From the IMG/VR virus record IMGVR_UViG_3300017971_000203: a stretch of 64,000 nt of DNA. One strand, given 5' to 3'. This DNA is from a virus. The first letter of the stretch is position 1, and each line of letters begins with the position of its first letter. The position numbers and the translations under genes are program-made. This document shows positions 3,001-49,263 of the stretch, piece by piece. The notes under the pieces were generated by a model that saw nothing but the letters and a program-made list of their open reading frames with translations, was not told the origin of the DNA and made no database searches.

Positions 3001-6000
3001 GCTTGAACCGGACTGAGCCGGCACGGGGTTCATCCAGTGCCCCTCGACCTTCGCAGCCTTCTTGAGCTTCTTCTTGACCGCTTGGACCTCTCCGGCCGCC
3101 GCCGCAGCCATCATGCCATTCAACGCACCGATAGTCTTCAGACCATACTTGTGCTTGAGCTGCTGCTTCTGCGCCTTGAGCCAGTTGGGACTGACCTGGA
3201 GCTCCGCTATGGATGCTGCGGCCATGAGCTCGTTCGTGAGCATCGCAGCCGCGACATGCTCCTTCCAGTCCTCGCCGAAGAGCTGCTGGTAGCTGCTCGC
3301 CGGCATACCACCGGAGATCGTCCCCGTGGAAGGATCCAAGTAAGAACCGGCGAGCACGACAGCCGCCTGGTCCTTCTGGCCCATCGAGAGCACACCAGCC
3401 TTCTTCGCAGCTTCCATCAGCGTGGGCGTGGCGCCGAAAGAGGGCACCAAAGCACCGGACTTGGACTTCGAGACCTGCTCCGAGAGCACGTAGGCAAGGG
3501 TGTTCTTATGGGCAGGGAAGTCCTGGATCGCCGCCGTAGTGGCGTAGATCTTCCCGACGCTGTACTGCGTCATTCCGAAGCCGGCCCCGATGGCGCGATC
3601 CTTCGAAGCCCCCAGCAGGCCTTCGCCCTCGAAGTTGTCCTGGATGTGCTTGACCATCGCCGCAGTCGCCAGACCGTCGAAGAGATCCTTCCAGTCCATG
3701 CTCTGCGATGAAATCTCCCCCTTCGCCGTCGCGATCGCATGCGTAAACGGGTTCTCCGTCCCCGGATACCACAGACTGTCCGCCATCTGCGTCGCGAAGA
3801 ACTGCTTCTGCTTCTCCCTCTCATCCTTGATGAACTTCTTGAGATCGCTGAACGCGGTCTGCTTCTCGATCGCAACCTGCGACATCGCCATCGCAGAAAC
3901 AAGGCCTGCAACCTTGGAACGCACAGCAGGCGTCGGAGCCAGCCCGGCTGCAATGATCAGGTCGTTTGTGACAGCTTTCGTAGGATCGTCTTCGAAGTGC
4001 TCCACCAGCTTCTTCGACACCTCAGTCGCCAGGATAGCGGCCTGGGTGTCCAGATACTTCTCAGGCGTCTCCCCAGCATTCGCCAACGTCTCGGCTTTCC
4101 CGGGCTGCCACTTCATCGCGTGCATCACACCCGCAAGGTTCGGCGGACCCGCTCCAATAGGGAGCACCTTGTTTGCACTCACCGCTTCTTTGATCTTATC
4201 CAGCGGCGTCTCCGCGAAGTCCTTGGCCCCCTTCTCGTAGTAGCCCGCCATCATCTTGATGCGGCTCTCTTTTAGGTCTTCTGTCGAACCTGGCAGCGCC
4301 GCCCCATGCCTGTACACGAACCGCAGATACTTCGCCGAAACCTCGAGCTCGGGCTCGAGCTCTTCCGACGCCGCTTTCACTGTGGGACCCGTCCAGTCGA
4401 ACTCTGTCCCTCCGACCTTCTGGAACATCGCCATGGACGCCGTAAGACTGCCCGCCACGTTCTTCCAGTCGTCACCGAAGTGCTCCTTGAAAAACTCATC
4501 GAGCTCCTCATTCTCCAGAGCTCCCCCGACACCGCCCTCGAACTCGTTCAAGGTGTCGAGCATGACCGCGTACTTCTGCGGGAGCCCCGGGAAGTCGACC
4601 GTTTCATCCAGCTTCGAAAGCCCCTCGAGCGACTCAAAAGCCCCGCCGGTCTTGTCCTTGAACTTCCCCAGGAAATTCGCCTCGGCCCCGGGCTTGAGAT
4701 CATGAACCTCCACGATGTCCTCGAACAGGTCGATGACGTCGTCGTGGTCCAACCCGTACTTCTCCGCCATCTCGGGAGAGTCCATCTGGCTGTACGCATC
4801 GTAGGCAAAATGCAACGCCGCAGCCGTGCTCTTCCAGCCCTTGCCGAAGTGCTCGCTCAAGAGCTCGTCGTCTTCTTCGTCCATGTAACCGAAGCCGCCG
4901 GCCTCGTCCGCCAGGTCGAAGAGGATCTTGTGCTTCCCCGAGAAGCCGATCAGGTTCTTGCCGGGCCCGGGTTCCTCGTCCTCGTCATAGGGGTCCTCGT
5001 CCACGGGATCGGGCACCGGCTCCACCGGCTCAGGTTCGATCGCAGCCGAGGGCATCACAGCCACGGGAAGCTCGCCCTTCTTCTTCTCGACCTTCTTGTG
5101 CTGCGCCACGAGCCCATTGATCAGGGCCATCTGGGTGCCCTGGTAAGGCGGCTGTCCCAACCTCCACGCCGTAGCCGCCAGGGTCCGGGCCTCCTTCGCC
5201 GGATAGCCCGTGAGCTCCTTCAGCTTCGGCAGCGCGGCCTCGATCTCATCCTTCGGCGGCAGCGTACCGTTCGGTTTGGCCTCCATGGGGAGCATCTGGG
5301 CCGCCGTGACAACAGCCTTGGCGACCTTGTACTTGGCCTTCCAATCGGGCCCGAAAGCGTTCTTCGCCAGCTGCACGGTCTTCTTGGGAAGCTGGTCGAG
5401 CCCACCCTCCCCGTCGATGCCGTCCATGAGGTCGCCGATCGTCTGGGGCAAGACCTTCCCGGCTACCACGCCGAGCTCGGGCGGGCCCTCCGGCTCGGGC
5501 TCGGTCTTCGACGGCGGCACTTCTCCGGCGGCCGGTCCCGTCGCCGTGATGCCTTTGTCCTTGGCGGCCTTGTACTTTGCCTTCCAGTCATTGCCGAAAG
5601 CCACCTCGAAGGCCGTGTTCATCCCCGTATGCTTCGACTTGAGCACGTCGAAGCCCTGACCGGAGACGAAATTCACGAGGTCCTGATCTCCGAGGGCGTC
5701 GCCCTCCTTCAGCTTCTTCTGGATCGTCATCGCGAGCTCGGCCGGAGTCCCGGCCTCGATCTCGACCTTCCCAGAAGTCGGCTGCAGGTCGTGCGGACCC
5801 TTGTAACCAGGGGGCACCTTCCCCTTGACCATCTCCGCCCACTTCGAATCTGCGGGCGGGTCGATCAGATCCGGGTAGTGCTTCTGAACCTGGTCGTGGG
5901 TGATGAAGACCGGTTGAACCTTGGTCTTGTCTTTCTTCGACCACTTGAAACAGAACAACCTGTTCGGGGTGGCCTTGTAGTAGGATGCCTCACACAATTC

Positions 6001-7178: not shown

Positions 7179-8073
7179 TGTCTTCCTCGTCGTCGTACAT
7201 CTGGGCCATGCGCTGCAGCGTTCTGGCCCCGTACAAGAGATCCATCCCGCTGCCCTGCGTGTCCATCACAATCATACGCACCCCGAACAGGTTCTCGAGG
7301 TTCGCCAGGTAAGCCAGGAACTCATCGCTGCCCGGGGGACACGATCCGTTCGTAGCCAGGTAGTCCATACAGACCAGGGTCAGAAGGTGCCCTCGCTTCG
7401 CGCTCTTCGCAATGAACTCACAGCAAGACAGCGCTTCGTTCACGATCGCCTTCTGGTCCGGGTAGAGCCGGAAGCGCACCCAGTCGCTCTCCGGGATCTC
7501 CTCCACGGTCGGCTCTTCGTAGGCCTCCTCCGGGGTGTCCGCCTTCCCCGTTTCCACGGCCTTCTCGGCTTCCTTCTGCGCCTCCTTGAGCGCGTGCCGA
7601 TACGCCCGGATAGCATCGGAGAGGTCCTCGTAGCGACAGTTCTCGGCCTTCTCCACCCACGCCGCCACGTTGGTGGGAGTCAAGACCCCCACGAGCTCCC
7701 GCGTCTTCGAATAACCCAGCCGGATGATACGCTTCTTCAGATCCGGATCCAGCTCGGACAGGTCGTCTACCTCCAGACGATAGAAGATCCGCCGAAGAAA
7801 GCGCACCTTCCGGTCCCGCATCCCGAGCACGTCGTAGGCGAACTGCTCGACGTTGTCGTACCCCCAGAAGGTACACACAGGAGGCTTCGTAGGGTCGTTG
7901 TCGATGGGGACATCGTAGAAAGTGTAGAGGATCCGCCCTAGCTCCAGGTAGCCGGCATCCAGGTCCTCCTGCAGCCGCACCGCCCTGTTCCGAAGCTCCT
8001 CGGCCCAGGCTCTCGAGCCCACCGGAAACTCACTCGGAAACGTCACCCGCAACGTGTTGCCCTCTTGCATCAC
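7132..8073 (-). CDS. Hypothetical phage protein
   Basis: 313-aa ORF with protein-like composition, packed within the operon. Confidence 0.7.
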   Translation of the reverse strand: MMQEGNTLRVTFPSEFPVGSRAWAEELRNRAVRLQEDLDAGYLELGRILYTFYDVPIDNDPTKPPVCTFWGYDNVEQFAYDVLGMRDRKVRFLRRIFYRLEVDDLSELDPDLKKRIIRLGYSKTRELVGVLTPTNVAAWVEKAENCRYEDLSDAIRAYRHALKEAQKEAEKAVETGKADTPEEAYEEPTVEEIPESDWVRFRLYPDQKAIVNEALSCCEFIAKSAKRGHLLTLVCMDYLATNGSCPPGSDEFLAYLANLENLFGVRMIVMDTQGSGMDLLYGARTLQRMAQMYDDEEDNADSAGTVSDLSDNA

Positions 8074-42923: not shown

Positions 42924-43191
42924 TGCCACGCCATTGCTCCGGGAGGGTGTAGACAGAGCGGCAGTCGTTGTGCGGCACCGTGTAGGTTTTCCCCACGTCA
43001 AAGGGGCACTGGCGTTTGCTCTTCTTCCCCCTCTTGGGCGGAGCCCCGTGCTCTGCAGTGTTTGTGCAGAGCACGGTGAAGGACCCGGTCCCGACACAGA
43101 GGACGTGACCGAGCCCGGTTTTCTTCCACTGCTCCCAGGGAGCCCCCGGGAGACGGAAGCTGACGAGGTCGCCCTTGATGAGGTCTGTCAT
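42883..43191 (-). CDS. Hypothetical protein coupled to Ro60
   Basis: ATG overlaps the TROVE stop (ATGA). Confidence 0.55.
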   Translation of the reverse strand: MTDLIKGDLVSFRLPGAPWEQWKKTGLGHVLCVGTGSFTVLCTNTAEHGAPPKRGKKSKRQCPFDVGKTYTVPHNDCRSVYTLPEQWRGNARQRSDGKHREA

Positions 43192-44687
43192 ACCTTGTCC
43201 GTCTTGATGGCTTCCGCCATCGTACCCCAGCCCCTGGAAGCCATGGACACGAAGTTCAGGACCTGGAGACTCCACCCGTAGATGAAGTAAGCCGGATCGT
43301 TGGGCTCGAGGAGCCCCGTGCGATACGGGGAGACGTCCACGATGAAGACGTTGATCTTCTTGTTGACCATCCGACGATACCGGTTCAGCACGTCGATGAA
43401 AGGCGAACCCTGGTTCTGCTGCTCGTCCGTGATGAGGATCAGGTTGTCCGCCTCGAACTTCTCCTGGAGCATCCACTGGGCGATGAGGTCCGTGCGCGTA
43501 GACCCGCTCGAGCGAATGGTCCGGGCCTGGGACAGGACACTGTCCCGCATCGAGACCTTCGCTTCGTGAAGGCAGTGGTTGAAAAGGAAGAAGCGCCCGT
43601 TGTAGTTGGTCTTCTTCATCAGAGAGATGGCGAAGATCCCGCCGATGAGAAGGAACCGGCCCTGCATGGATCCGGAGATGTCCAGGCAGACCACGGTACG
43701 CCCCGGGATCTCCGGGAGGTTCCCGAAAGAGAGCTCCAGCGCGTCCCGCAGAGAGTCCTGGGCCCACGGCGAAGACACGTGGTCGATGGCATCCAGAAAG
43801 CGGAACGGGAGGATCTTCGACTTCCCGATCACCTCGGGGTCGTTGAACTTCCGCTGCACCATTTCCCGGTGGTTATCCAGCACACCGTGGCGCTCCAGGG
43901 TCGCGAGGTTCCTCAGCAGCGCGAAGATCGGCATCTGCGGAGCGATGGCGTCCCAGACCTCTGTGTCCTTGCCGGCGAAGGTGCTGGCCACTTCGTGAGG
44001 CAACCGACCCTCGGTGATGAGCCGGACCTTCTCCTTGGCATCCGTGGCCTTCTTCAGCGCTTCGAAGGCGGCGATCTGGGGGAGCTCTTCCAGGTTGGTC
44101 TCACGGCCCATCATGTAGTCGGCCAGGTCGCTCCGCATCCTCTTCGGGTGCAGGATGATCATCAGGTCCCGGATGGACCACTCCCCGACCTTGCTGGCGC
44201 CGTACTTGATCGCCCAGTACTCACCCAGCTTCTGGGCCAGCCACCTACCGGCGGTGCGCTTGACGCACTTGCCGCTCTTGTTCCAGCCCAGAGAGCACAG
44301 AATAGTGATGAAGTCCCGGAGGTCGTTCGGGGTGCGGACCACCTGACCGAAGGCACGCTTGAAGCGGTCCTTGTCGGTCATAAACAACTTCGCCAGCCCG
44401 AACACAGGCTGCGTGCGCATGAAGCCCTTGTTGCGTCCGTACCCGAGAGCCTTGGTGGCGAACTCGGGGTCCTCGGCCATCATTCGGTCGTGGATCGTGT
44501 GGCTCTCTTTCAGGAGGTCCTTGGACGACACGTAGAACGTGTTTCCAAGGGTGTTGGTCAAGAGAGTCTGCAGGTACTGCTCTTCGAGCGGGCGTTCCCA
44601 CGCCGGGTACCGGGCCGGGTCGCGGGTTGTGATCGGTGCCAGTCGACTACGCTGCCTCGGATTGAACAGGGCGTTCACGCGGCTCAT
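43188..44687 (-). CDS. rsr: Ro60/Rsr TROVE-domain RNA-binding protein with C-terminal vWA
   Basis: LLTNTL..TFY, GFMRTQP, V.RTP.DL..F, KY...WS.RDL....HPK, MP.FALLRNLATL.R, KSKILPFRF..A, D.SGSM, ITDEQ. Confidence 0.9.
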   Translation of the reverse strand: MSRVNALFNPRQRSRLAPITTRDPARYPAWERPLEEQYLQTLLTNTLGNTFYVSSKDLLKESHTIHDRMMAEDPEFATKALGYGRNKGFMRTQPVFGLAKLFMTDKDRFKRAFGQVVRTPNDLRDFITILCSLGWNKSGKCVKRTAGRWLAQKLGEYWAIKYGASKVGEWSIRDLMIILHPKRMRSDLADYMMGRETNLEELPQIAAFEALKKATDAKEKVRLITEGRLPHEVASTFAGKDTEVWDAIAPQMPIFALLRNLATLERHGVLDNHREMVQRKFNDPEVIGKSKILPFRFLDAIDHVSSPWAQDSLRDALELSFGNLPEIPGRTVVCLDISGSMQGRFLLIGGIFAISLMKKTNYNGRFFLFNHCLHEAKVSMRDSVLSQARTIRSSGSTRTDLIAQWMLQEKFEADNLILITDEQQNQGSPFIDVLNRYRRMVNKKINVFIVDVSPYRTGLLEPNDPAYFIYGWSLQVLNFVSMASRGWGTMAEAIKTDKV

Positions 44688-46029: not shown

Positions 46030-46460
46030 GGATGCGGGGCTTCCACCCGCTACGTCGTGTCCTGACGACTTGGAATGCTCGAGCTGCAGCCGTGCCTCGG
46101 AATGAGGCGGGGAGCCAAACAGTCTCGAAATCGACCGCTCCCTCGGCATATCATGCGGGGGCCTATCTGTAGAACCCTCCCCCTTTCAACTTGGCTCTCC
46201 TTCCCAGGCTGGCCGGACAGGCGCGCTTTCACCACTCTGGCTACTTTGCGCCAACGAGCTCTGACAGCTCGTCTCCGGGTATGGGCAACTTTCCCCGGTG
46301 TCCAGCGCGAACACAGGTCGGATCCACACCCGCCACGCCTTACTGTGGTTCTTTCCATCTGCGTGACCGTCCCCGTCCAATCGCTGCCCGGGGGCTGGTT
46401 GCCCGGTCCAGAGTCCCCGGGAAGAGGTGTGCTTTTTTCATGCGGGCCGACCTCGAAAAA
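46030..46460 (-). ncRNA. Large unclassified structured RNA (3' part)
   Basis: No credible ORF; many hairpins, AGUA/GAAA motifs and a terminal T-loop-like hairpin GCGGG-TGGAAGC-CCCGC. Confidence 0.4.
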
Positions 46461-46462
46461 GA

Positions 46463-46534
46463 TGGACTGGCGTGGAATCGAACCACGGCTCCCTGGGCTT
46501 CAACCAAGCGCTCTACCGACTGAGCTACCAGTCC
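46463..46534 (-). tRNA. tRNA-Phe(GAA)
   Basis: GGACTGG/CCAGTCC-A acceptor, TAGCTCAGTCGGTAGAGC, CTTGG-TTGAAGC-CCAGG, CGTGG-TTCGATT-CCACG. Confidence 0.88.
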
Positions 46535-46539
46535 GCTCC

Positions 46540-46860
46540 CTGCTGCCTTCCAGCACGCCCTACTTCCGCAGCCAACGGATTCGGGAACGCCCCAGAAGAA
46601 CAGCCCCCAGCTTGATGCCTCCGGGGCTTGAGGCGGGGAATGGATCCCGATGGAGGGGGTTTCCCGGCCCCCTCCGTGCCCAACCCGATACATCAACCTT
46701 CCAGGCTCAGTGCACATCCCCTGGTAGGCGCTGGGCTTCCCTGTATCTTCCACGGCTCCCGAGCTGCCTGTGGTTTCAGCACAGGCCCGAGACTTCAGAC
46801 GTCGAGTGCTGTCGACTCCTGGACCCCGTCAGGGATCAGCACGTCCCTGGGGAGTACCGT
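46540..46860 (-). ncRNA. Large unclassified structured RNA (5' part)
   Basis: Stems such as GGAGGGGG/CCCCCTCC, CAGGGA/TCCCTG and GCCTGTG/CACAGGC; no credible ORF. Confidence 0.35.
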
Positions 46861-47139: not shown

Positions 47140-47306
47140 CGGGGGAATGACGGTCCCCCATGAACCGCTCCGCGAGAGTGCGCAGGAGTACACATGGCAT
47201 ACCCTTTTCGAACGGAGGTGAACCACCGAAGAGGTGAAACGCCTCCCTGCAGTCTGCCACCACAGGGAGGTCGTTTCAAGAGCGGCACCCTACCTCACGC
47301 TCTCCC
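47140..47306 (-). ncRNA. Unclassified structured RNA immediately 3' of tmRNA
   Basis: CCGCTC/GAGCGG closing stem and a long GAAACG-CCTCCCTG/CAGGGAGG-CGTTTC helix. Confidence 0.45.
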
Positions 47307-47307
47307 A

Positions 47308-47674
47308 TGGAGATGGCGGGAGTTGAACCCGCGTCCGCAATGCTTCGGAATCGTGCTTCTACGTGCGTATCCTGTGTACGCTACCCCTCGAGACGCCCAC
47401 AGGCAGGCTCCTCTTCGGGAGGTCCAGCTCTGATTGTCGGAGACCAGCTCGCCCTGAACCAAGGCTCTCTGGCGTCGTATCCTGCTGATTGACGTCAGCA
47501 GCTCGAGCCGCAGGAGCTCTCGAGGCCGACGCGCTCACGCAGCTTGTGCGTAGGCGAATTGCTCAACATCGTCGTTGGCAGTTGTCGTTGTCTTCGCAGT
47601 TTGTCGAGGTCACGAAGACCACCCCCGGCACGCAACACGTCCCTCCATCACCACGTCGAAACCGTGTCATCCCC
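47308..47674 (-). ncRNA. ssrA: tmRNA, tag (A)ANDDVEQFAYAQAA*
   Basis: GGGGATGA..GGTTTCGAC 5' end, G3:U70 acceptor, 3' GGACGCGGGTTCAACTCCCGCCATCTCCA; tag ORF 47579-47535 ends in AA-stop. Confidence 0.93.
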
Positions 47675-47676
47675 AA

Positions 47677-47801
47677 AGCCCCGTGCGGGGATTGCACCCG
47701 CGCTTTGTCCGTTGGGACACGCAGACGGGGTAGGCTGCGCCAACTGCAGGTCCGAAGACCTTCGACCGGGACAAATGCCTGAAAACCCGGTCCCGCGGGC
47801 C
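47677..47801 (-). ncRNA. tRNA-framed RNA with an enlarged central domain
   Basis: 3' T-arm-like GCGGG-TGCAATC-CCCGC plus an imperfect acceptor; a TTTGTCC/GGACAAA stem encloses multiple hairpins. Confidence 0.4.
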
Positions 47802-47820
47802 AGCACCGCGGTTGTATGAT

Positions 47821-47977
47821 TTTGCTCGAAGATGATTGCCGGAAGGTGTGCAAAGCACATTCTATGTCTGATGCTCTGACCAACTGAGCTACCACTCCAT
47901 CTGTGGAGTGGGCAGGATTCGAACCCGCGACCGCCAGATTAACCGAAGTAACCCTCACGAGCTGCGCTCCGAGCAAA
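47821..47977 (-). ncRNA. YrlA-type Y RNA (unit 7) with permuted tRNA domain
   Basis: Terminal stem TTTGCTCGGAG/CTTCGAGCAAA; AGGGTTACTTCG; then T-arm, closed acceptor hairpin CCACTCCA/TGGAGTGG and D-arm TAGCTCAGTTGGTCAGAGC. Confidence 0.8.
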
Positions 47978-47982
47978 GAGGT

Positions 47983-48059
47983 TCCTCCCGAAGATGAGAA
48001 GCGGCAAGGTACGTTTCGTGTGCATCGTCGAAGTAACCCTGCCAGGCGCTCCGGGAAGA
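47983..48059 (-). ncRNA. Minimal Y-RNA-like unit 6
   Basis: Same terminal module (CGGAGCG..AGGGTTACTTCG..ACCTT..TCATCTTCG) with an insert of about 20 nt. Confidence 0.7.
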
Positions 48060-48061
48060 GA

Positions 48062-48145
48062 GGGGACGCCCAGGGTGCGAGCCTGGTCTGTAGGGCGGAT
48101 CCGAAGACATATGCCCTGCCGTCCTACTACGGGCGGCCACGTCCC
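48062..48145 (-). ncRNA. Cloverleaf tRNA-like element with degenerate loops
   Basis: GGGACGT/GCGTCCC acceptor, GCCGCCC/GGACGGC, AGGGC/GCCCT with a 16-nt loop, CCAGG-CTCGCAC-CCTGG. Confidence 0.5.
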
Positions 48146-48152
48146 AAGAGCA

Positions 48153-48226
48153 TCTCACGAGGATGAAGGCTGCCAAGGGCTGGGTTCGTTGAAAGCGAAG
48201 TACCCCTGGCAAAACGCCCCGTGAGA
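48153..48226 (-). ncRNA. Minimal Y-RNA-like unit 5
   Basis: TCTCACGGGG/CCTCGTGAGA stem, AGGGGTACTTCG..CCCTT..TCATCCTCG. Confidence 0.7.
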
Positions 48227-48233
48227 AAAGGTA

Positions 48234-48350
48234 TCACTCGAAGATAATAGCGGAAAGGCTTTGCCCCTCCATCCGGGGCTGGCCGGCATAAGGGCGCCGG
48301 CCTTTGGGGTCGAACCAAACGAAGTAGCCCTGTCCTGTCGCTCCGAGTGA
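48234..48350 (-). ncRNA. Y-RNA-like unit 4 with compact permuted tRNA domain
   Basis: TCACTCGGAG/CTTCGAGTGA stem, AGGGCTACTTCG, T-arm TTTGG-TTCGACC-CCAAA, GGCCGGC/GCCGGCC hairpin, GCCCC/GGGGC D-like arm. Confidence 0.75.
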
Positions 48351-48357
48351 AAAAGGG

Positions 48358-48475
48358 TCCCCGTGAAGATGATGGTAGGGAAAGTCAACGACTGCCTCCG
48401 AGGCTGCGCTGGAGTCGAACCAGCTTGGTCGTGGTTGTAAACCACGAAGTAACTCTCTCTGGCGCTCCACGAGGA
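48358..48475 (-). ncRNA. Y-RNA-like unit 3 with T-arm
   Basis: TCCTCGTGGAG/CTTCACGGGGA stem, GAGAGTTACTTCG, GCTGG-TTCGACT-CCAGC. Confidence 0.72.
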
Positions 48476-48482
48476 GAAGAAC

Positions 48483-48611
48483 CGGTCGAAGATGAAAGTT
48501 GCCAAGGTGTCTGTACAAGGCGTTCCTCCGGTCGTTGCCGATCCGGTAATCCCATTGGGAGCCCCCCGAAGGGGTGGTGGAACGAAGAACCCCTGACGGC
48601 CGCTCCGACCG
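48483..48611 (-). ncRNA. Y-RNA-like unit 2 with a non-tRNA multi-hairpin domain
   Basis: CGGTCGGAG/CTTCGACCG stem, AGGGGTTCTTCG..CACCTT..TCATCTTCG; insert of three hairpins. Confidence 0.7.
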
Positions 48612-48613
48612 AA

Positions 48614-48757
48614 TAGACCCGTTGGGATTCGAACCCAACTCCCTTCCACGATGCTCCTACCCGGCACTTCCGTCCGGCCTCAGAGCACACTCACTGTTGC
48701 CCCTGTGAGCTGCTTCAGGGTTCCGGCCTGGGGAGGGGCACCCCATTCCGCAGGTCT
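48614..48757 (-). ncRNA. tRNA-framed RNA (acceptor plus canonical T-arm) with ~110-nt replaced core
   Basis: AGACCTG/CGGGTCT-A acceptor and TTGGG-TTCGAAT-CCCAA T-arm. Confidence 0.6.
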
Positions 48758-48758
48758 A

Positions 48759-49054
48759 TGGAAGACATCGGAGTCGAACCGATCACCTCCCCTAAAGGAT
48801 CCAAGAACCGGGACGGCATCGAAGCCGACAACGCAATGCGTTCCACCTGGCGCGGTTCTGTTCAGGGCAGAAATTCAAGAGCCTCCTTGTACGTCGAAGC
48901 CATAGTGACTCCGGCTTTCTGATTGTTTTTTGGCGCAGTCCTTCGCATTGTGAAGACCGCCTTGCAGTGCGCTAGGTCTTCTGGTATCAGACAATCCACT
49001 TCGAAGGAAGGAAAACCAGCTCAGCAGGCGCTCTCCCAGCTGAGCTAGTCCCCC
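48759..49054 (-). ncRNA. tRNA-Ala-like RNA with a ~230-nt structured insertion at the anticodon arm
   Basis: GGGGGAC/GTCTTCC-A with G3:U70, D-arm TAGCTCAGCTGGGAGAGCG, T-arm ATCGG-TTCGACT-CCGAT. Confidence 0.7.
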
Positions 49055-49059
49055 AAGGT

Positions 49060-49198
49060 TGTCCGAGGATAAAAATTGGGAAGGTACTATACGGCGCTCT
49101 TCCCCTGAGCTATCCCCTTCACAACGGAAGGGGAGCAGGATTCGAACCTGCGACCTCCGGCTCCGAAGGCGAAGTAACCCTCTCCGCCGCCCCGGACA
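49060..49198 (-). ncRNA. YrlA-type Y RNA (unit 1) with permuted tRNA domain
   Basis: TGTCCG/CGGACA stem, AGGGTTACTTCG, GCAGG-TTCGAAT-CCTGC, TCCCCTTC/GAAGGGGA hairpin, TAGCTCAGGGGAAGAGC. Confidence 0.8.
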
Positions 49199-49234
49199 TG
49201 ACATCAGCGCCGAAGCACCAACATCGTGACACCG

Positions 49235-49263
49235 AAGCTAACAGGGTCGGTTTGGATTGTCAA
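49235..49263 (-). promoter_or_regulatory. Class B promoter driving the RNA cluster
   Basis: TTGACAATCC.., N17, TAGCTT, followed by GTGTCAC. Confidence 0.7.

What the first reader, a model, noticed from the sequence alone, without database searches (positions are those of the whole stretch)
48614..49054. tRNA-framed RNAs: a 296-nt tRNA-Ala-like molecule and a 144-nt acceptor/T-arm molecule with large structured inserts
Seen: 48759-49054 has a canonical Ala-type acceptor (G3:U70, A73), D-arm and T-arm. About 230 nt of multi-stem RNA replaces the anticodon arm (GATTGT/ACAATC, AAGACC/GGTCTT, AGAACCG/CGGTTCT), and this insert includes a tiny SD-led ORF, MASTYKEALEFLP. One base downstream, 48614-48757 has an acceptor and a canonical T-arm around a different core. 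A third, weaker example lies at 47677-47801. No group I P7 core is recognisable, and a separate true tmRNA is present. Inference: these could be an aminoacylatable tRNA scaffold carrying cargo RNA, a second tmRNA-like RNA class, or an unusual intron.
Basis: partly seen in the sequence, partly recalled or inferred. Interest (0 to 1): 0.8.

Follow-up and report, generated by a model that had tools for sequence, protein, structure and literature searches.

The report
tRNA-shaped RNAs inside phage Y-RNA operon
Two non-decoding, tRNA-shaped RNA genes, one an alanine-tRNA shell whose anticodon arm is replaced by a 232-base insert, sit inside a phage operon of seven Y RNAs next to the phage's own Ro60 gene; they are neither introns nor a second tmRNA, and what they do is still unproven.

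Summary
Everything lies on the minus strand, inside one non-coding operon of a T4-like phage. Its order is promoter, Y RNA U1, X, Z, Y RNAs U2-U7, tmRNA, three tRNAs, small ORFs, Ro60.

X (49054-48759) is a real tRNA-Ala frame. Nt 1-32 match bacterial tRNA-Ala. G42-G43, the variable loop, the T arm, the 3' acceptor strand and A73 follow. Nt 33-41 are replaced by 232 nt, so splicing cannot restore an anticodon arm. The sister phage carries a compact 68-nt ortholog with an identical acceptor stem. No intron, tmRNA, ribozyme or Y-stem model matches X.

The predicted ground state is therefore two long hairpins, not a cloverleaf. The central 163 nt folds no better than shuffled sequence, and the mini-ORF is within chance.

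Z (48758-48613) is a cloverleaf-shaped RNA with a consensus T arm. Its closest known analogue is T4 species 1 RNA.

Best reading: these are tRNA-derived processing and stabilising frames, possibly chargeable with alanine, that carry cargo.

The scan earlier noted tRNA bodies with permuted Y modules on other DNA. I tested that design here and did not find it.

The parts
48759..49054 (-). X: 296-nt tRNA-Ala-derived frame with a 232-nt replacement of positions 33-41
   Evidence: Sequence. Cloverleaf-constrained fold. 93% identity to E. coli tRNA-Ala over nt 3-32. The compact ortholog in L026 (7492-7559) scores 45 bits with Rfam tRNA.
49023..49054 (-). X nt 1-32: acceptor 5' strand, D arm and anticodon-stem 5' strand, up to U32
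   Evidence: Nt 1-14 are identical to the L026 ortholog.
49010..49025 (-). Anti-5' arm (X nt 30-45). It pairs with nt 1-16 in a 16-bp hairpin containing 4 G-U pairs.
   Evidence: z=-5.2, 0 of 500 shuffles. Every departure from perfect complementarity is a transition that keeps a G-U pair on this strand.
48847..49009 (-). Central 163 nt of the insert, with no significant predicted structure
   Evidence: z=+0.10. No Rfam hit. No similarity to the L026 array.
48862..48903 (-). 13-codon ORF MASTYKEALEFLP with GGAG 7 nt upstream; probably fortuitous
   Evidence: 11.6% of shuffles give one. Absent from the ortholog.
48805..48846 (-). Anti-3' arm (X nt 209-250). It pairs imperfectly with the variable loop, T arm and acceptor 3' strand (nt 254-297).
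   Evidence: 34 pairs, z=-2.0, 15 of 500 shuffles.
48759..48790 (-). X 3' tRNA part: G42-G43, variable loop AGGUG, T arm (48767-48783), acceptor 3' strand, A73. No CCA is encoded.
   Evidence: 92% identical to L026 over 26 nt.
48613..48758 (-). Z: 146-nt cloverleaf-shaped RNA with a 7-bp acceptor, arm I, a branched 75-nt arm II, a T arm (48621-48639) and discriminator U
   Evidence: the MFE is the four-way junction; z=-1.8. T-loop consensus GGUUCGAAUCC.
47679..47730 (-).
48063..48145 (-). Cloverleaf-shaped spacer element between Y units U5 and U6, with no T-loop consensus
   Evidence: not better than shuffles.
49059..49199 (-). Y RNA unit U1 (YrlA type, cargo is a permuted tRNA-like domain); it ends 4 nt before X
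   Evidence: R1 93.4 bits. Rfam YrlA 36.5 bits, below threshold. Fold.
47822..48612 (-). Y RNA units U2-U7 (48482-48612, 48359-48474, 48234-48350, 48153-48226, 47984-48058, 47822-47976). U2 starts at the base after Z's discriminator.
   Evidence: Stem covariation.
47305..47674 (-). True tmRNA, tag ANDDVEQFAYAQAA
   Evidence: 159 bits.
43188..44687 (-). Phage Ro60/Rsr ortholog (TROVE domain plus Ro60 vWA domain)
49235..49263 (-). Promoter-like TTGACA-N17-TAGCTT ahead of the array; a similar site stands in L026
   Evidence: Read from the sequence. Below the threshold of the scan.

Best explanation
X and Z are non-decoding, tRNA-derived RNAs made from the same long transcript as the phage's seven Y RNAs, its tmRNA and its tRNAs.

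Shown:
- X descends from a tRNA-Ala(UGC)-like gene. That gene persists as a compact 68-nt mimic in the sister phage.
- In this phage, positions 33-41 were replaced by 232 nt.

Inferred mechanism:
- The tRNA frames act as processing and stabilising handles.
- RNase P cuts at G1 of X and at U1 of Z. The second cut also makes X's 3' end at A73.
- A 3' cut after Z's discriminator makes the 5' end of Y RNA U2.
- CCA is then added. X, with G1:C72, G2:C71, G3:U70, A73 and G20, could be charged by AlaRS.
- The body inserted at the anticodon position is cargo, not a decoding arm.
- The insert ends are antisense to both halves of the frame. X can therefore close into two long hairpins, or open into a cloverleaf with a stem closing the cargo.
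For: - **Context.** The Ro60 gene is established. Model R1 finds exactly seven Y units in the window, on this strand. It finds 1-10 units directly upstream of Ro60 genes in at least 14 other contigs. Stem covariation is 94.4% paired against 66% in shuffles, with 174 double changes.
- **Frame.** The L026 ortholog scores 45 bits with Rfam tRNA. Its anticodon is UGC, closed into a 7-bp stem with a triloop, and its variable loop is 2 nt, so it does not decode either.
- **Conservation.** The acceptor strands are identical in both phages, while neighbouring RNA is about 74% identical.
- **Spacing.** U1 ends 4 nt before X, X abuts Z with no gap, and Z abuts U2 with no gap. True tRNAs abut Y units at 0-2 nt in L154, L156, L157 and L161.
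- **Hairpins.** The anti-frame hairpins are described.
- **Known parallel.** T4 species 1 RNA shares Z's layout and its position in a tRNA cluster.
Against: - There are no expression or processing data.
- The predicted ground state of X is not a cloverleaf (-107.8 against -93.9 kcal/mol when constrained). RNase P and AlaRS may never see a tRNA shape.
- The insert is known from one lineage only, so nothing shows that the cargo is conserved or functional. Its centre is no more structured than shuffled sequence.
- Y units U2-U5 and U6-U7 are separated by only 7-8 nt with no tRNA-like element between them. tRNA-type punctuation is therefore not generally needed.
Confidence: 0.45

Rival explanations
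1. X is a disrupted gene. A tRNA-Ala-like gene was hit by an insertion or an inverted duplication. It is still transcribed within the operon but has no function of its own, and the hairpins are leftovers of how the insertion arose.
For: The insert is absent from the sister phage. The central 163 nt has no significant structure. The ORF is within chance. The MFE is not a cloverleaf.
Against: The frame is unchanged against the ortholog (14 of 14 nt at the 5' end; 24 of 26 at the 3' end), while flanking RNA is about 74% identical. All four non-Watson-Crick positions in the 16-bp hairpin are G-U pairs on the transcribed strand. That points to selection at the RNA level.
Confidence: 0.2
2. X is a precursor. 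The two long hairpins (16 bp and about 34 bp) are double-strand-specific nuclease (RNase III-type) sites that release the roughly 165-nt centre as a small RNA or a tiny mRNA. The tRNA frame is only raw material for the hairpins.
For: The hairpins are the only statistically supported structure in X. The centre is unstructured and A-rich, and has an SD and an AUG.
Against: If only pairing mattered, the frame strands could drift with their partners, yet they stay identical to the ortholog's tRNA sequence. The ORF is not significant. I found no antisense target of 14 nt or more in the window.
Confidence: 0.15
3. X is a tRNA gene with a self-splicing or enzymatically removed intron.
For: ARAGORN with introns allowed returns a tRNA-Gly(gcc) with a 204-nt intron. 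Bacterial tRNA genes can hold group I introns of about this size (established knowledge).
Against: No intron family matches at E<=10. The canonical sequence stops at U32 and resumes at G42, so no anticodon loop or 3' stem strand remains. The ARAGORN solution has two mismatches in a 5-bp stem, a long variable arm, and a Gly anticodon on an Ala acceptor.
Confidence: 0.05
4. X is a second tmRNA-like RNA that enters ribosomes and adds the peptide ASTYKEALEFLP.
For: G3:U70 and A73, a T arm, and an ORF whose second codon is GCU.
Against: Neither the Rfam tmRNA model nor ARAGORN finds it. It has a full D arm where tmRNA has none. It has no P2 helix and no pseudoknot set. The tag lacks an (A)LAA-type end. 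The ortholog has no ORF at all. The phage already has a standard tmRNA.
Confidence: 0.03
5. X and Z are further Ro60 partner RNAs. They would be either 'inside-out' Y RNAs, as noted elsewhere in this scan, or misfolding-prone ligands of the Ro60 cavity.
For: They lie inside the Ro60-linked array. The scan's notes describe tRNA bodies with permuted Y modules in other Ro60 phages. X has two competing folds.
Against: The phage's own Y-stem model scores at most 1.7 bits on this strand of X and Z. A permuted model scores nothing inside X or Z. The compact ortholog has only a plain hairpin.
Confidence: 0.12

Closest known systems
Bacteriophage T4 species 1 RNA (rnaC) and species 2 RNA (rnaD), stable RNAs of the T4 tRNA cluster
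   Same: They are encoded in a phage tRNA cluster and abut tRNA genes with spacers of 1-6 nt. They are 119-139 nt long. rnaC has a consensus T arm (CCGGGUUCGAAUCCCGG) 9 nt from its 3' end, a terminal stem joining both ends, and large hairpins in the core. Their function is still unknown (PMC3014915, PMC9697503). The host phage here also has a T4-type capsid protein.
   Different: I found no sequence similarity beyond the T arm. T4 has no Ro60 or Y RNAs. rnaC has no Ala-type acceptor or D arm.
YrlA/YrlB bacterial and phage Y RNAs (Rfam RF02553; Chen et al. 2014, PMC4201824; phage phiLo Yrl1/2, PMC12135203)
   Same: They are tRNA mimics encoded beside Ro60 on the same strand. M. smegmatis YrlA is cut by RNase P and receives CCA. 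YrlB carries a T arm.
   Different: YrlA is a permuted tRNA-like domain held inside a Ro60-binding stem. X and Z have free acceptor ends and no Ro60-binding stem, in either orientation.
tRNA-Ala and alanine-accepting mimics (tmRNA tRNA-like domain)
   Same: G1:C72, G2:C71, G3:U70, A73 and G20. [quoted passage not shown]
   Different: X has no anticodon loop. Rfam tRNA does not score X. There is no tmRNA architecture.
tRNA bodies with a permuted Y module in the anticodon arm
   Same: A tRNA frame with a foreign module at the anticodon position, in a phage that encodes Ro60.
   Different: Here the inserted module is not a Y stem, and it is flanked by arms antisense to the frame.

Membership tests
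tRNA (Rfam RF00005, decoding tRNA) | 7-bp acceptor stem, D arm and T arm with consensus loops | tested here: met
   X. Z has the acceptor stem and T arm only.
tRNA (Rfam RF00005, decoding tRNA) | 5-bp anticodon stem with a 7-nt loop; score at or above the Rfam gathering threshold | tested here: not met
   No tRNA hit on X or Z at E<=10. Nt 33-41 are missing. The ortholog X' scores 45 bits, but its loop closes to a triloop and its variable loop is 2 nt.
tRNA gene with group I/II intron | Match to an intron covariance model | tested here: not met
   no intron family at E<=10.
tRNA gene with group I/II intron | Exons that join into a normal anticodon arm | tested here: not met
   Canonical tRNA-Ala sequence stops at U32 and resumes at G42. 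The ARAGORN -i solution is strained.
tmRNA (RF00023) | Model match; tRNA-like domain without a D stem; P2 helix; pseudoknots; tag ORF without a start codon that ends in a degron | tested here: not met
   8.8 bits on the T loop only. ARAGORN finds only the true tmRNA. X has a full D arm. The ORF starts with AUG and ends in EFLP.
tmRNA (RF00023) | Alanine identity set in the acceptor stem (G3:U70, A73) | tested here: met
   Read from the sequence. Charging itself cannot be tested with these tools.
Y RNA (YrlA/YrlB type) | Ro60-binding stem: outer helix N5-CGGAG/CUUCG-N5, asymmetric internal loop, middle helix | tested here: not met
   R1 with filters off scores at most 1.7 bits on this strand, against 58-93 bits for U1-U7.
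Y RNA (YrlA/YrlB type) | Encoded beside Ro60, on the same strand | tested here: met
Inside-out (permuted) Y RNA on a tRNA body (notes of this scan) | Loop-closed copy of the Ro60-binding helix inside the anticodon arm | tested here: not met
   Permuted model R2 has no match inside X or Z.
T4 rnaC-like stable RNAs of phage tRNA clusters | Non-tRNA stable RNA in a tRNA cluster, with a T arm near the 3' end and paired termini, abutting tRNA genes | tested here: met
   Z. T4 rnaC. This is a likeness of layout only. Homology was not shown and RNA stability was not tested.

The most novel reading that the evidence does not exclude
X is a natural 'caged tRNA scaffold'. It would be an alanine-chargeable tRNA frame that carries a foreign RNA domain. 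Built-in antisense arms would lock both acceptor strands into hairpins until a factor opens them into the tRNA shape. That factor could be the phage Ro60/Y-RNA machinery, which handles misfolded RNAs. This would be a new class of switchable tRNA-framed RNA in phages.
Probability: 0.1. Interest if true: 0.8.

Novelty: new variant of a known kind. Interest (0 to 1): 0.5.

Why it matters
Phage tRNA clusters have long been known to hold stable tRNA-like RNAs of unknown role. T4 species 1 and 2 have gone unexplained for about 50 years.

Here such RNAs sit inside a Ro60/Y-RNA operon. One of them can be traced to tRNA-Ala, and a compact form and an expanded form exist in two sister phages. This natural pair gives a direct test of whether the tRNA frame serves for processing, for stabilising cargo or for alanylation.

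The antisense arms would be an unusual built-in switch if they are real. On the practical side, these elements cause annotation errors: a false tRNA-Gly call and a false permuted-tmRNA hit.

Tried and rejected
**Searches for relatives that found nothing**
- blastn of the whole array against the phage collection: no match.
- Ro60-based and pattern-based searches for more relatives. There was nothing in viral contigs for this clade. The metagenome scan gave only the one sister lineage, L026/L153. L030 and L031 are identical to the window.
- A homolog search with the neighbouring 276-aa protein returned only itself.

**Tests on X and Z that were negative**
- Local alignment of the X insert and of Z against the L026 array: not above the shuffle level.
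- A search for antisense targets of the insert in the window found only 11-13-mers, as chance would give.
- Y-stem model R1 and the permuted model R2 on X and Z: negative.

**Steps that failed or gave only noise**
- A model of the X frame could not be built, because MAFFT misaligned the D arm across the 232-nt gap.
- The pattern GGAGCG..GGGTTACTTCG in viral contigs gave 25 hits, about what chance predicts. I did not use them.
- ARAGORN at lowered thresholds gives many overlapping spurious tRNAs in the array.

Full report
**Where it lies.** Every feature of the finding is on the minus strand. The window is a phage. It has a T4 gp23-type capsid protein, an endolysin and a deoxynucleoside kinase. 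No host genome is held for it. The ORF at 43188-44687 (-) is a Ro60/Rsr ortholog. It has a TROVE domain (9e-18) and a Ro60 vWA domain, matches phrog_850 (8.6e-44), and is about 50% identical to many bacterial TROVE proteins. Upstream on the same strand lie tRNA-Arg, tRNA-Phe, tRNA-Met and a standard tmRNA. Above these lies the stretch 47680-49230, which holds the finding.

**The surrounding array.** Seven units share one design:
- an outer helix N5-CGGAG/CUUCG-N5;
- an asymmetric internal loop;
- a middle helix (..CAGGGU/ACCUUG..);
- the string UACUUCG;
- a variable cargo.

Each unit folds this way on its own. A strict pattern with full outer-stem complementarity finds exactly these seven, and only on this strand. 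A covariance model built from them (R1) scores them at 58-93 bits. It also finds 1-10 units directly upstream of Ro60 genes, on the Ro60 strand, in at least 14 independent contigs. One of these is a 224-kb IMG/VR phage with about ten units. On 40 units the stem is 94.4% paired against 66% in shuffles, with 174 double-sided changes. Slid controls give about 50%. Rfam's YrlA model aligns the same architecture at sub-threshold scores. So the array is a set of Y RNAs of the YrlA/YrlB kind (Chen et al. 2014, PMC4201824). U1 and U7 carry the permuted tRNA-like domain. X and Z lie between U1 and U2.

**What X is.** X runs from 49054 to 48759.
- Nt 1-32 are acceptor strand GGGGGAC, U8 A9, D arm GCUC-AGCUGGGA-GAGC, G26 and CCUGCU. 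Nt 3-32 are 93% identical to E. coli tRNA-Ala genes.
- The 3' end reads GG-AGGUG-AUCGG-UUCGACU-CCGAU-GUCUUCC-A. These are G42-G43, a five-base variable loop, a T arm, the 3' acceptor strand and A73.
- The alanine identity set G1:C72, G2:C71, G3:U70, A73 and G20 is present. That these bases define alanine identity is established knowledge, not something tested here.
- Positions 33-41 are absent, and 232 nt stand in their place.

The sister phage has 75% Ro60 identity and the same gene order (L026). At the same place after its U1 it has a 68-nt gene with the identical acceptor stem and a near-identical T arm. Rfam's tRNA model gives that gene 45 bits with anticodon UGC. Its anticodon loop closes into a 7-bp stem with a triloop, and its variable loop is 2 nt. 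ARAGORN does not call it. Both phages therefore keep the acceptor, D and T parts of a tRNA-Ala, and neither keeps a working anticodon arm. The frame is far better conserved than its surroundings. The 5' 14 nt are identical and the 3' part matches at 24 of 26, against about 74% for neighbouring RNA.

**What X is not.**
- *Not an intron.* No group I, group II or other intron family matches at E<=10 with lax filters. Removing any segment cannot restore an anticodon arm. ARAGORN with introns allowed offers a tRNA-Gly(gcc) with a 204-nt intron. That solution has two mismatches in the stem, a long variable arm, and an anticodon that disagrees with the acceptor.
- *Not a tmRNA.* Only the T loop matches (8.8 bits). 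X has a full D arm and no P2 helix. The 13-codon ORF has its own AUG, an end unlike a degradation tag, and no counterpart in L026. An ORF of this kind arises in 11.6% of shuffles.
- *Not a Y RNA.* R1 with filters off gives at most 1.7 bits on this strand.
- *Not an inside-out Y RNA.* Notes of this scan on other phages describe tRNA bodies with a loop-closed, permuted Y module in the anticodon arm. I built a permuted model from the natural 3'-element/spacer/5'-element junctions (R2). It finds nothing inside X or Z.

- The first 13 nt of the insert, together with G30-U32, are complementary to nt 1-16. This gives a 16-bp hairpin (z=-5.2, 0 of 500 shuffles).
- All four departures from perfect complementarity are transitions that leave G-U pairs on the transcribed strand. 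On the other strand they would be A-C mismatches. This points to selection on the RNA.
- Near the other end, nt 209-250 pair imperfectly (34 pairs, z=-2.0) with the variable loop, T arm and 3' acceptor strand.
- The predicted ground state of X is therefore two long hairpins flanking the centre (-107.8 kcal/mol). The cloverleaf-constrained fold is 14 kcal/mol worse.
- The 163-nt centre folds no better than shuffled sequence (z=+0.10).
- The frame strands have not drifted with their antisense partners and remain identical to the ortholog. I infer that both the tRNA sequence and the hairpins are under constraint. This is an inference from one lineage.

**What Z is.** Z runs from 48758 to 48613 and starts at the base after X's A73. 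Its minimum-energy fold is a four-way junction:
- a 7-bp acceptor stem, 8 bp if X's A73 is counted;
- an arm at the D position;
- a branched 75-nt arm at the anticodon position;
- a 6-bp T arm with loop UUCGAAU.

Z's discriminator U is followed at once by U2. L026 has two smaller cloverleaf-shaped elements with T arms elsewhere in its array. The window has two more weak ones, at 48063-48145 and 47679-47730. The motif GGTTCGA occurs six times in 1.8 kb of this strand.

**How it probably works.** In other Ro60 loci, true tRNAs abut Y units at 0-2 nt (L154, L156, L157, L161). Here U1 ends 4 nt before X, X abuts Z, and Z abuts U2. M. smegmatis YrlA is cut by RNase P and receives CCA (PMC4201824). 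I therefore read X and Z as tRNA-derived frames that:
- give RNase P and 3'-end enzymes their sites within the long transcript;
- protect the RNA they carry;
- in X, may be alanylated.

These steps are inferred and none is shown. Against this reading, most Y units follow each other at 7-8 nt with no such element between them, and X may stay locked in its hairpins.

**Comparison with known systems.** The closest known analogue of Z, and loosely of X, is T4 species 1 RNA (rnaC). rnaC is 139 nt and lies in the T4 tRNA cluster, 6 nt from rnaD, which lies 1 nt from tRNA-Arg. It has a consensus T arm 9 nt from its 3' end and paired termini. Its role is unknown (PMC3014915, PMC9697503). This is a likeness of layout; homology was not shown. 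A phage Ro60 with two upstream Y-like RNAs has been described for Thermus phage phiLo (PMC12135203).

**Limits.** The clade is known from two lineages only, and the insert from one. No covariation test of the insert or of Z is possible. Expression data could not be reached.

**Verdict.** The context is a phage Ro60/Y-RNA operon. The intron and tmRNA readings fail. A tRNA-Ala-derived scaffold with an unexplained insert flanked by antisense arms remains, which makes this a new variant of the known kind 'tRNA-like stable RNAs of phage tRNA and Y-RNA clusters'.

Noticed in passing
window 47822-49199 (-): Seven-unit Y-RNA array with one shared Ro60-type stem and different cargos. Cargos are a permuted tRNA-like domain in U1 and U7, T-arm-bearing cargos in U3 and U4, and short hairpins in U5 and U6. 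The stem model finds the same module next to Ro60 in at least 14 other contigs, with strong covariation.
   Followed up: yes
L175:4306-5917 (IMG/VR UViG_3300009671_000009, 224 kb): About ten Y units in a row upstream of this phage's Ro60 gene. A further unit with a cargo of about 170 nt (roughly 5108-5325) was missed by the model. An unrelated structure of about 130 nt, closed by a stem, lies at 4965-5100.
   Followed up: partly
window 48475-48481, 48351-48358, 48227-48233, 47977-47983 (-): The spacers between adjacent Y units are pyrimidine-rich and alike (UUCUUCU, ACCCUUUU, UACCUUUU, AACCUCUUU). They may be 3' tails or cleavage sites.
   Followed up: no
window 47535-47962 (-): The Rfam 'tmRNA_permuted' hit above threshold (52 bits) is an artefact. 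It joins the T arm and acceptor hairpin of Y unit U7 to the 5' part of the true tmRNA.
   Followed up: yes
L026:7353-7423 and the same place in L027-L029 and L153: ARAGORN calls a tRNA-Gly(acc) that is really the permuted tRNA-like domain of a YrlA-type Y RNA. The real tRNA-Ala-like gene next to it (7492-7559) is not called.
   Followed up: yes
L096:1472-1734: Two weak Y-stem hits (about 20-23 bits) each enclose a complete, unpermuted tRNA (Phe at 1494-1566; anticodon tca at 1630-1705). This may be a third way of wiring a tRNA to a Y stem.
   Followed up: no
window 49235-49263 (-) and L026:7281-7320: Both phages have TTGACA, 17 nt, TA...., then GTGTCAC ahead of the array. This looks like a shared promoter and operator-like motif. 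It falls below the threshold of the consensus scan.
   Followed up: partly
window 46030-46860 (-): Long stretches between the tRNA genes have no convincing ORF. I did not examine them here (another note of the scan covers them).
   Followed up: no
L177:1909-2047 (phage T4 rnaC): T4 species 1 RNA carries a perfect T-arm consensus. Its fold is much more stable than shuffled sequence (z=-4.6).
   Followed up: partly
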